Shown here: one piece after another, positions 5,475-6,017 of the stretch | Layout: each line of letters opens with the position of its first letter | Numbering within the stretch: the stretch's first letter is position 1 | Virus record (IMG/VR): IMGVR_UViG_3300029915_000104 | DNA: 31,634 bases | Source: a virus | Direction: 5' to 3' (one strand) | Notes under the pieces: model-generated | What the model was told of the DNA's origin: nothing | Databases searched by the model: none | What the model saw: the letters and a program-made list of their open reading frames with translations, nothing else | Program-made: the position numbers and the translations under genes

Positions 5475-6017
5475 TCAATGCGGCGGGGCGCCAGCAAAAT
5501 GCAACAAAACCGTCACCACCAATGAACATATCGCGATAGCGCCAGAAACAATCGCCAGCAAGGTGTTGCGCCGGGCCGAGTCGGCAGTCGTTTCCTGCAC
5601 AATGCGCGCCTGAAGACCGATCGTCTGTTCCGCGTCGCGTTCTGCGTGCAAACGATCCCAATCTTTGGCATTGGTGTCCAAACGCACGAACGTAGACTGT
5701 GCCTCGATGATCCGCTGATTCTCATGATTGAGCAGTTCCAGGCGGCGTTCATACTCGATCGCCTGAATAGCGCGAGCCTTTTCCATCGCGGCGAGACAGG
5801 AGAATATCAGTTCACGCAAGGTCTCATTGCGCGTAAGACTGATCTTGTTCAATGCCTCCAACCGTTCTTCGGATTGCATCTTATTGGCATCGACCCGGTG
5901 ATCGATGATGCGGATGACACCCTCAAACTGCGCCTGAATGGCAATCGCCGAAGCCGCCACCCGACGCTCCACAATGTCCGCCGTCCGATCGATATGCGCT
6001 TGCTCTTGTCTGTCCAT
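5475..6017 (-). CDS. 180-aa coiled-coil protein with a single C-terminal transmembrane helix (tail-anchored topology). Immediately upstream of, and co-oriented with, the MVP gene.
   Basis: ATG at 6017 with AGGGTG 11 nt upstream; the ORF track extends to a TTG at 6041. About 150 aa of heptad-rich sequence rich in Glu, Arg, Leu, Ala and Gln. The C-terminus is LLAIVSGAIAICSLVVTVLLHF followed by AGAPPH. The gap to the MVP start is 79 nt. Confidence 0.6.
   Translation of the reverse strand: MDRQEQAHIDRTADIVERRVAASAIAIQAQFEGVIRIIDHRVDANKMQSEERLEALNKISLTRNETLRELIFSCLAAMEKARAIQAIEYERRLELLNHENQRIIEAQSTFVRLDTNAKDWDRLHAERDAEQTIGLQARIVQETTADSARRNTLLAIVSGAIAICSLVVTVLLHFAGAPPH

What the first reader, a model, noticed from the sequence alone, without database searches (positions are those of the whole stretch)
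5475..6017. Tail-anchored coiled-coil membrane protein co-oriented with the MVP gene
About 150 aa of coiled coil are followed by one C-terminal TM helix. The gene lies 79 nt upstream of MVP, with a sigma70-like candidate promoter and no late motif. This could be a membrane tether for an MVP assembly or part of a lysis or spanin-like function. The topology, with cytoplasmic coiled coil and C-terminal anchor, is unusual for phage holins and i-spanins.
Basis: partly seen in the sequence, partly recalled or inferred. Interest (0 to 1): 0.5.

Follow-up and report, generated by a model that had tools for sequence, protein, structure and literature searches.

The report
Tail-anchored helical phage membrane protein
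The gene is real and encodes one long helix with a membrane anchor at its very end, but it belongs to a widespread unnamed phage family that often sits in cell-lysis gene clusters, and nothing links it to the vault-protein gene next door.

Summary
The ORF at 5475-6017 (minus strand, 180 aa) is a real gene in a jumbo T4-like myovirus. AlphaFold2 models one continuous helix (residues 2-174). A strong hydrophobic segment (residues 152-176) ends five residues before the C-terminus. In 85 other phage MVP loci, none has a homologue within 6 kb and none has a tail-anchored gene immediately upstream. The closest homologue (54% identity) follows a DarB-like giant protein with no MVP gene nearby. The protein belongs to an unannotated family: 466 cluster representatives at E<=1e-3, mostly 100-230 aa. 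Members share a nearly invariant LQAxEYERRLxxLN[HG]E motif and a C-terminal anchor. The family has no Pfam, PHROG or PDB match. It typically ends late structural operons. Small membrane-protein genes are 5-fold enriched around it, and at least four independent loci have an endolysin-type gene beside it. The best analogue is XhlA (PBSX) / SPP1 gp24.1, a C-terminally anchored partner of a two-helix holin, but profile comparison finds no homology. A lysis role for this copy is inferred, because no holin or endolysin lies in the window. Interest is moderate to low.

The parts
5475..6017 (-). CDS of the 180-aa tail-anchored helical protein (ATG at 6017, stop codon at 5475-5477).
   Evidence: ORF list and sequence. 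Homologues P0001, P0002 and P0003. AF2 single helix over residues 2-174.
5490..5564 (-). C-terminal transmembrane anchor, residues 152-176 (TLLAIVSGAIAICSLVVTVLLHFAG). It is preceded by RRN and followed by APPH.
   Evidence: Kyte-Doolittle 19-residue windows reach 2.67. A TM segment at the extreme C-terminus is present in 38 of 39 aligned family members; median 6 residues follow the best 19-residue window.
5685..5777 (-). Family signature core, residues 81-111 (ARAIQAIEYERRLELLNHENQRIIEAQSTFV). R91, R92 and L93 are invariant. Q85, A86, E88, Y89, L96 and N97 are nearly invariant.
   Evidence: Alignments A2 and A6. The profile search found 466 representatives at E<=1e-3.
5868..5990 (-). N-terminal helical extension, residues 10-50 (DRTADIVERRVAA..IQAQF..I..NK.QSE). 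It is conserved only in the long (180-233 aa) subfamily.
   Evidence: Alignments A1, A2 and A3.
6018..6260 (-). Upstream non-coding spacer of 243 nt between the giant virion-protein gene and this gene. It holds a -35-like TTGACC (6070-6075), a -10-like TATCAT (6043-6048) at a non-canonical 21-nt spacing, and a 9-bp hairpin with no U-tract (about 6153-6184). A 65-aa ORF (6031-6228) is probably spurious.
   Evidence: Sequence. No promoter by the consensus scan. Inverted repeat I5. Whole-spacer fold z-score -0.88. The 65-aa ORF matches only the near-identical contig.

Best explanation
Shown:
- The gene encodes a 180-aa protein that is one long, charged, proline-free alpha-helix ending in a single C-terminal transmembrane segment.
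- With RR on the N-terminal flank and no signal peptide, it is most simply an inner-membrane tail-anchored protein whose helix stays in the cytoplasm.
- It belongs to a widespread, so far unannotated, almost exclusively viral family, defined by the motif A[LR]xLQAxEYERRLxxLN[HG]E followed by more helix and a terminal anchor.
- Its position beside the MVP gene is specific to this phage lineage and is not a conserved pair.

Inferred:
- Like the analogous but non-homologous XhlA (PBSX) and SPP1 gp24.1 proteins, the family probably acts late in infection at the cytoplasmic membrane, as an accessory to envelope disruption.
- The cytoplasmic helices would oligomerise and cluster the anchors.
- The clustered anchors would then cooperate with a canonical multi-helix holin to set or trigger hole formation and endolysin release.
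- In this jumbo phage the gene sits at the end of the baseplate/fibre operon. It is probably transcribed by read-through or from a weak promoter of its own. Its holin and endolysin partners must lie outside the window.
For: Architecture.

Family:
- The profile search finds 466 representatives at E<=1e-3, and 27 at E<=1e-10.
- Alignments show the invariant RRL core and the terminal TM segment.
- 32 viral-contig loci with GC from 38% to 70% carry a member.
- Only 3 hits to the core motif occur in 185,579 bacterial and archaeal species genomes.

Context:
- An endolysin gene lies immediately upstream and overlapping in L020 (phrog_894, 5.5e-25) and in L030 (phrog_1493, 6e-21).
- L027 has the order: family gene, 2-TM 54 aa, TM 51 aa, lysozyme-type phrog_873 (3.6e-49), N-terminal-TM 103 aa.
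- L133 has the order: SLT-type lysin, family gene, N-terminal-TM protein, Amidase_2, 56-aa protein with a long hydrophobic stretch (residues 3-53, long enough for two TM helices).
- Small same-strand TM proteins make up 23% of genes within 2 genes of family members, against 5.4% of genes 4 or more positions away (odds ratio 5.2, p=4e-7).
- 12 of 29 loci have a same-strand gene of at least 500 aa within three genes upstream, which is where the late structural operon ends and lysis cassettes usually begin.

Precedent:
- SPP1 gp24.1 and PBSX XhlA have a C-terminal TM helix and cooperate with a 2-TM holin (PMC6316719).
- All three PBSX genes are needed for lysis (PMC5589764, PMC10630273).
- In Bacillus phages the XhlA-type gene lies directly after a tail gene, and before or beside the holin and endolysin genes.
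Against: - No holin-like small TM gene lies anywhere near the target in the 31.6-kb window, and the only lysozyme-type domain found is the SLT/lysozyme part of the baseplate hub protein. The 3545-aa protein and the smaller ORFs were not scanned for domains.
- Recognisable endolysins are within 3 genes in only about 4 of about 30 independent family loci, a modest excess over chance.
- Other family members lie in non-lysis contexts: after a DarB-like protein (L008), beside a MuF-like head protein (L010), and before a DNA-polymerase exonuclease (L023).
- No neighbouring protein family recurs across loci.
- Profile-profile comparison with XhlA gives a probability of 2.3%. The analogy is therefore architectural only.
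- A nearly invariant motif in otherwise very divergent proteins suggests a specific conserved binding partner, which the holin-partner model does not explain.
- No experiment exists for any family member.
Confidence: 0.4

Rival explanations
1. Membrane tether or adaptor for the phage MVP (vault-like, SPFH-shoulder) assembly. The cytoplasmic helix would bind the MVP cap-helix or shoulder and fix the shell to the inner membrane.
For: The two genes are co-oriented and 79 nt apart, with no convincing terminator between them. The near-identical contig L004 has the same order. SPFH-type proteins are often paired with membrane partners (general knowledge).
Against: None of 85 other phage MVP loci has a family homologue within +-6 kb, and none has a tail-anchored gene immediately upstream. 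MVP relatives at 74%, 71% and 60% identity have unrelated neighbours, for example the terminase gene in L006. None of the family loci from other viral contigs (L008-L039, up to 8 kb of flank) was retrieved through an MVP match, and the one whose genes were called, the closest homologue L003/L008, has no MVP gene. The family occurs in small phages that have no sign of MVP.
Confidence: 0.06
2. Accessory ('moron'-type) inner-membrane protein acting on the host or on competing phages. Examples would be superinfection exclusion or a host-takeover factor that uses the invariant EYERRL..LN motif to bind a conserved bacterial cytoplasmic or membrane protein.
For: The motif is nearly invariant across hosts with GC from 38% to 70%, while the rest of the protein diverges to a mean column identity of 15%. 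The position at the end of the late operon, beside lysis genes, is a classic moron slot (general knowledge). The gene is absent from the syntenic site of the cultured relative Atu_ph07, so it is accessory here. Family contexts are heterogeneous.
Against: The motif scan found only 3 hits in 185,579 species genomes, which argues against a typical lysogenic-conversion gene. Known exclusion proteins are usually N-terminally anchored or lipoproteins (general knowledge). The overlapping start and stop codons with endolysin genes in L020 and L030 suggest co-function rather than a free-standing moron.
Confidence: 0.2
3. Virion-associated or ejected protein that inserts its C-terminal helix into the host membrane during genome delivery, or an assembly factor for the giant fibre or polyvalent proteins encoded immediately upstream.
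For: Here the gene directly follows a 3545-aa virion structural protein. In the closest homologue it abuts the stop codon of a DarB-like polyvalent protein. In L010 it lies between a MuF-like head protein and a 1265-aa protein. An ART-PolyVal gene lies 4 kb away in the window.
Against: The large upstream proteins are mutually unrelated. Many family members are instead flanked by small membrane proteins and endolysins. There are no proteomic data.
Confidence: 0.12

Closest known systems
XhlA of Bacillus subtilis PBSX / gp24.1 of phage SPP1 (Pfam PF10779, 'Haemolysin XhlA')
   Same: Both are small phage proteins with an N-terminal helical or coiled-coil cytoplasmic part and a single TM helix at the extreme C-terminus (PMC6316719). 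Both are encoded directly after tail genes, beside holin and endolysin genes, and several family members show the same arrangement (L020, L027, L030, L133).
   Different: There is no detectable homology: hhalign probability is 2.3%, and only 1 of 39 family members gives a weak PF10779 hit (E=0.011). XhlA lacks the EYERRL..LN motif. The XhlA relatives found here are all in Bacillus phages. The family here is in uncultured phages with GC from 38% to 70%. The window protein is about twice as long (180 against 83 aa) and has no holin or endolysin gene beside it.
i-spanins (lambda Rz type)
   Same: Both are phage membrane proteins dominated by long coiled-coil-like helices, and both can be encoded in lysis cassettes.
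   Different: i-spanins are anchored by an N-terminal TM helix with the coiled coil in the periplasm, and they pair with a lipoprotein o-spanin gene. Here the anchor is C-terminal, there is no signal sequence, and no lipoprotein ORF lies nearby. The family also occurs in viral contigs of 65-70% GC (L020, L030), whose hosts may be high-GC Gram-positives that need no spanin; the hosts were not determined.
Canonical holins (classes I-III, for example lambda S and T4 T)
   Same: Both are small phage inner-membrane proteins. T4-like phages place the holin gene right after the tail-fibre genes (general knowledge).
   Different: Holins have 1-4 TM helices followed by a charged cytoplasmic C-terminal tail, or in T4 T a large periplasmic domain. 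This protein has about 150 cytoplasmic residues before one TM helix and an uncharged 5-residue tail. No holin family in Pfam or PHROGs matches it.
Membrane partners of SPFH/band-7 proteins (NfeD-type), the implied model for an MVP tether
   Same: A membrane protein is encoded next to a gene with an SPFH-like (MVP shoulder) domain.
   Different: NfeD-SPFH pairs are conserved operons, whereas this pair is not conserved. There is no NfeD domain.

Membership tests
Unnamed 'EYERRL-motif' tail-anchored phage protein family (defined here) | Core motif A[LR]xLQAxEYERRLxxLN[HG]E in a long helix. | tested here: met
   Residues 81-99 read ARAIQAIEYERRLELLNHE. R91, R92 and L93 are invariant, and Q85, A86, E88, Y89, L96 and N97 are at least 90% conserved across 39 sequences. 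The family HMM scores the window ORF at 2.4e-47.
Unnamed 'EYERRL-motif' tail-anchored phage protein family (defined here) | Single TM segment at the extreme C-terminus, with no other TM segment and no signal peptide. | tested here: met
   Residues 152-176, hydropathy 2.67, 5 residues after the segment.
XhlA / SPP1 gp24.1 (PF10779) | Sequence match to the family profile. | tested here: not met
   The window protein has no PF10779 hit. hhalign of family alignment A6 against XhlA alignment A7 gives a probability of 2.3%.
XhlA / SPP1 gp24.1 (PF10779) | N-terminal coiled-coil or helical part plus one C-terminal TM helix. | tested here: met
   compared with the gp24.1 sequence and its description in PMC6316719.
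XhlA / SPP1 gp24.1 (PF10779) | Gene adjacent to a canonical 2-TM holin gene and an endolysin gene. | tested here: not met
   Not met in the window. Met for family relatives L020, L027, L030 and L133.
XhlA / SPP1 gp24.1 (PF10779) | Co-expression with the holin is required for membrane lesion and lysis. | not testable with these tools
   This needs genetics or expression experiments.
i-spanin | N-terminal TM anchor (type II) with a periplasmic coiled coil. | tested here: not met
   The only TM segment is C-terminal, and the N-terminus is charged with no signal sequence.
i-spanin | Adjacent, overlapping or embedded o-spanin lipoprotein gene. | tested here: not met
   No ORF with an N-terminal hydrophobic or lipobox segment lies next to or within the gene.
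Canonical holin | One or more TM helices followed by a charged cytoplasmic C-terminal tail, and a match to a holin family. | tested here: not met
   The C-terminal tail APPH is uncharged. No holin family in Pfam or PHROGs matches.
Conserved MVP/SPFH-partner gene pair | Co-occurrence of the two genes across relatives. | tested here: not met
   None of 85 MVP loci has a homologue, and none has a tail-anchored upstream gene. The closest homologue has no MVP gene within +-10 kb.

The most novel reading that the evidence does not exclude
In this jumbo-phage lineage, a member of the tail-anchored EYERRL family has been recruited next to the MVP gene and is co-transcribed with it. It would anchor a phage-built vault-like shell to the inner membrane. 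This would be a lineage-specific innovation, so the lack of conservation elsewhere does not strictly exclude it.

A more likely but less dramatic novelty is that the family as a whole is a new, widespread class of holin-partner or lysis-timing proteins, outside the Bacillus phages in which all XhlA-type relatives found here occur. I put that at about 0.35 probability and about 0.5 interest.
Probability: 0.05. Interest if true: 0.8.

Novelty: new variant of a known kind. Interest (0 to 1): 0.33.

Why it matters
The finding as stated, a tether for a phage vault, would have been striking, but the comparative evidence does not support it.

What remains is more modest. It is a large, almost exclusively viral protein family with a very strongly conserved short motif and an unusual tail-anchored topology. 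Pfam, PHROGs and the PDB all miss it.

If it proves to be a holin partner or lysis regulator, three things follow. The two-component XhlA/holin principle would extend well beyond Bacillus phages, the only place its relatives were found here. Annotation of lysis cassettes in metagenomic phages would improve. And the invariant EYERRL..LN motif would give a defined handle for finding its binding partner.

Tried and rejected
- Pfam, PHROGs and NCBIfam scans of the protein and of 33-39 family members gave only chance-level hits.
- A PDB profile search gave one chance hit to a TM segment of PsbY.
- A Foldseek search of the AF2 model against BFVD gave no match, as expected for a single helix. I did not run the AFDB or PDB fold searches, because a lone helix gives meaningless matches.
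- tblastn of three family members against 50,697 cultured-phage records gave no match. The family is therefore unrepresented in cultured phages at this sensitivity.
- megablast of the locus against the same phage records gave no match.
- The word-indexed homologue search with the family profile returned only 12 hits and no informative source names: two were labelled 'hypothetical protein' and the rest were unnamed.
- All-against-all BLAST of 148 neighbouring proteins showed no recurrent partner family.
- The large proteins upstream of family genes in different loci are unrelated to each other.
- The ART-PolyVal protein does not co-occur with MVP in other loci, so a vPARP-like link was dropped.
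- The sigma70 promoter call was rejected because the spacer is 21 nt.
- An intrinsic terminator after the giant gene was rejected. There is a hairpin but no U-tract, and the fold z-score is -0.88.
- I considered whether the 66.7-kb contig (L003) and the 7-kb MVP contig (L005), both from JGI sample 3300044833, are one genome. Their GC contents (65% and 51%) make that unlikely.

Full report
**Setting.** All large genes in the window lie on the minus strand. They form the baseplate region of a jumbo T4-like myovirus.
- A gp6-like baseplate wedge protein lies at 16899-20285 (phrog_10646, E=0).
- A gp5-like hub with OB-fold and SLT/lysozyme domains lies at 23226-26279.
- A 3545-aa virion structural protein lies at 6261-16898.
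- The nearest cultured relatives are Sinorhizobium phage Phosso, Agrobacterium phage Atu_ph07 and Rak2/121Q-like phages. They share only 35-40% amino-acid identity.
- Downstream of the giant gene come the target gene (5475-6017), an MVP-like gene (2906-5428; Pfam MVP_shoulder 4.7e-18) and an ART-PolyVal gene (910-1668).

**The observation.** The ORF is real.
- It spans 5475-6017 on the minus strand: ATG start, 180 aa, with a weak AGGG ribosome-binding site upstream. A TTG at 6041 would add 8 residues but has no ribosome-binding site.
- Homologues exist at 99% (P0001), 54% (P0002) and 44% (P0003) identity with the same layout.
- AlphaFold2, run with this shallow alignment, gives one uninterrupted helix over residues 2-174 with mean pLDDT 87.
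- Residues 1-150 contain no proline, two glycines and 33% charged residues.
- Hydropathy marks a single strong TM segment at residues 152-176 (maximum 2.67). RRN precedes it and only APPH follows it. The protein is therefore tail-anchored, most simply with the N-terminus in the cytoplasm.
- A regular heptad repeat is not demonstrable over the full length. Power at period 3.5 is below the shuffle mean. Period 3.67 is exceeded by 2.75% of shuffles. Local a/d occupancy is 50-75%. I therefore call it a long amphipathic helix that is probably oligomeric, not a proven coiled coil.
That methionine is nearly invariant in the alignment of homologues.
- The claimed sigma70-like promoter is TTGACC and TATCAT separated by 21 nt. 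This fails normal spacing, and the scan did not report it.
- A probable late motif, CTAAATAT, occurs three times, all on the gene strand (0.27 expected). Two copies lie 13-18 nt before structural-gene starts. None precedes the target or MVP.

**Test of the MVP link.** It is not.
- MVP homologues are abundant: 4679 proteins at E<=1e-10 and 247 IMG/VR contigs. Many lie on contigs of 100-570 kb.
- I examined 85 MVP loci with about 6 kb of flank on each side. These were two 'huge phage' records, three metagenome contigs at 60-74% identity, and 80 IMG/VR loci.
- An HMM of the target's family finds no member in any of them.
- None has a tail-anchored gene directly upstream. Only 4 have any tail-anchored ORF within three genes.
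- The neighbours of MVP vary. In L006 (71% identity, same GC as the window) MVP follows the terminase gene.
- Conversely, the closest homologue of the target lies on a 66.7-kb contig, where its start codon abuts the stop codon of a DarB-like methylase/helicase polyvalent protein. No MVP gene is called within 10 kb on either side.
- In Atu_ph07, the genes after the orthologous giant structural gene are a 42-aa ORF, a 237-aa and a 198-aa hypothetical protein, and a 607-aa protein. None has a TM segment, so there is no tail-anchored protein there.
- The adjacency to MVP is therefore lineage-specific.

**What the protein is.**
- A full HMMER profile search of 1.84 billion cluster representatives found 466 proteins at E<=1e-3, of which 27 were at E<=1e-10.
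- Most are 100-160 aa and match the C-terminal two-thirds of the query.
- Alignments show a sharp signature, A[LR]xLQAxEYERRLxxLN[HG]E, followed by ..YV..(D/E).Y, a variable helical spacer, and a TM segment at the very end. RRL is invariant, and Q, A, E, Y, L and N are at least 90% conserved. A median of 6 residues follows the best 19-residue hydrophobic window.
- The window protein belongs to a long subfamily (180-233 aa) with an extra conserved N-terminal helix.
- The family has no Pfam, PHROG, NCBIfam or PDB counterpart.
- It was not found in 50,697 cultured-phage records with three different queries.
- It is present on at least 32 IMG/VR contigs with GC from 38% to 70%.
- An exact scan for its core motif hit only 3 of 185,579 bacterial and archaeal species genomes.
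- It is therefore essentially a family of uncultured, probably lytic, phages.

**Context of the family.**
- No neighbouring protein family recurs across loci, and the large upstream proteins are unrelated to each other. The kind of neighbourhood does recur.
- In 12 of 29 non-redundant loci, a same-strand gene of at least 500 aa lies within three genes upstream, and in two further annotated contigs the gene strand switches a few genes downstream. This is the end of the late structural operon.
- Small same-strand proteins with TM segments make up 23% of genes within two positions of family members, against 5.4% of genes four or more positions away (odds ratio 5.2, p=4e-7).
- Peptidoglycan hydrolases lie beside the family gene in at least four independent loci:
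  - L020: an endolysin whose stop overlaps the family start (phrog_894).
  - L030: an amidase-type endolysin overlapping the family start (phrog_1493).
  - L027: family gene, two small TM proteins, a lysozyme-type protein (phrog_873), then a protein with an N-terminal TM segment.
  - L133: an SLT-type lysin, the family gene, an N-terminal-TM helical protein, an Amidase_2 protein (E=1.4e-5), then a 56-aa protein with a long hydrophobic stretch.
- L129 has two small TM proteins before the family gene, and two genes after it a 102-aa protein whose N-terminus (MRSLLIVLVAVAAC...) looks like a lipoprotein signal by eye.
- There are counter-examples. L010 lies between a MuF-like head protein and a 1265-aa protein. 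L023 lies before a DNA-polymerase exonuclease. L008 lies after a DarB-like protein.

**Closest known analogue.**
- SPP1 gp24.1 and PBSX XhlA are small proteins with a C-terminal TM helix. Together with a canonical two-TM holin (gp26 / XhlB) they kill and lyse the cell, and neither protein suffices alone (PMC6316719).
- xhlA, xhlB and xlyA are all required for lysis (PMC5589764).
- XhlA-type genes are often mis-annotated as tail fibre genes because they follow the tail genes (PMC10630273).
- I retrieved gp24.1 (83 aa: a helical N-terminal part plus a terminal TM segment) and five relatives. In each, the gene directly follows a large tail gene and sits before or beside the holin and endolysin genes.
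- The architecture and position therefore match the family described here.
- Profile-profile comparison shows no homology: hhalign probability is 2.3%. Only one of 39 members gives a marginal PF10779 hit.
- The protein may work like XhlA, but it is not a member of that family.
- i-spanin and canonical holin memberships fail on topology, on the absence of a lipoprotein partner, and on the lack of a charged C-terminal tail.

**Mechanism and confidence.**
- Shown: a tail-anchored, all-helical membrane protein. It belongs to a large motif-defined viral family. It is not a conserved partner of MVP.
- Inferred (about 0.4): a late-acting inner-membrane accessory of envelope disruption. Its cytoplasmic helices would oligomerise and its terminal TM helices would cooperate with a holin.
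- Three weaknesses remain. No holin-like gene is visible near the target in this window, and the only lysozyme-type domain found is in the baseplate hub. The excess of endolysin neighbours in the family is modest. The extreme conservation of EYERRL..LN points to a specific partner that is still unknown.
- Rivals: an accessory host- or competitor-directed membrane protein (0.2), a virion, ejection or assembly factor for the giant upstream proteins (0.12), and the MVP tether (0.06).

**Novelty and interest.**
- Phage-encoded MVPs have already been reported (bioRxiv 10.1101/2023.11.10.566534), so the neighbouring gene is not new in itself.
- The tail-anchored family appears to be undescribed. Functionally it looks like a variant of a known kind, the C-terminally anchored holin partners.
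- Interest is moderate to low, at about 0.33.

Noticed in passing
window 52-2842: The 11-mer GGCTACGAAAA occurs 17 times with at most 1 mismatch, against 0.28 expected. Nine copies are on the + strand (52-2122). Eight are on the - strand (2382-2842), most of them spaced at about 30 or 60 nt. Together they form two inverted arrays around about 2120-2380, directly downstream of the MVP gene and flanking the ART-PolyVal gene. This looks like a binding-site array (iteron, centromere or regulatory). The 204-aa ORF at 2089-2703 lies over it and is probably not a gene.
   Followed up: partly
window 2906-5428 (-): An MVP-like protein (MVP_shoulder 4.7e-18, Vault_3 8e-6). Its true start is probably Met12 (5395). 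Homologues are very common in large phage contigs: 4679 proteins at E<=1e-10, and 247 IMG/VR contigs, many of 100-570 kb. That is far more than the two gut phages described in the 2023 preprint 10.1101/2023.11.10.566534. Its gene neighbourhood is not conserved.
   Followed up: partly
window 20737-20744, 21561-21568, 29981-29988 (all - strand): CTAAATAT occurs 3 times, all on the gene strand, against 0.27 expected. Two copies lie 13-18 nt upstream of structural-gene start codons (the 140-aa ORF ending at 20719 and the 103-aa ORF ending at 29968). It is a probable late-promoter motif of this phage. The T4 consensus TATAAATA is absent.
   Followed up: partly
window 910-1668 (-): A stand-alone ADP-ribosyltransferase of the 'polyvalent protein' type (ART-PolyVal, 7e-24) lies 1.2 kb downstream of the MVP gene. 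This recalls the vault-associated PARP of eukaryotes, but the two genes do not co-occur in the 85 other MVP loci checked.
   Followed up: yes
L003 65-10000 (JGI 3300044833, 66.7-kb contig): The closest homologue of the target directly follows a giant DarB-like methylase/helicase polyvalent protein. The protein is called as 4008 aa and runs off the locus; phrog_10089 scores 7.5e-279. Its C-terminal region contains hydrophobic segments. The stop of the giant gene and the start of the family gene are adjacent (10000/10001).
   Followed up: partly
L026 7920-8321 and 8331-8678: A second, weak family match (E=6.5e-5) lies immediately after the family gene in this viral contig. It may be a diverged tandem paralogue.
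   Followed up: no
window 6031-6228 (-): A 65-aa Pro/Ala-rich ORF in the GC-rich spacer upstream of the target was called as a gene in the near-identical ENA contig.
   Followed up: yes
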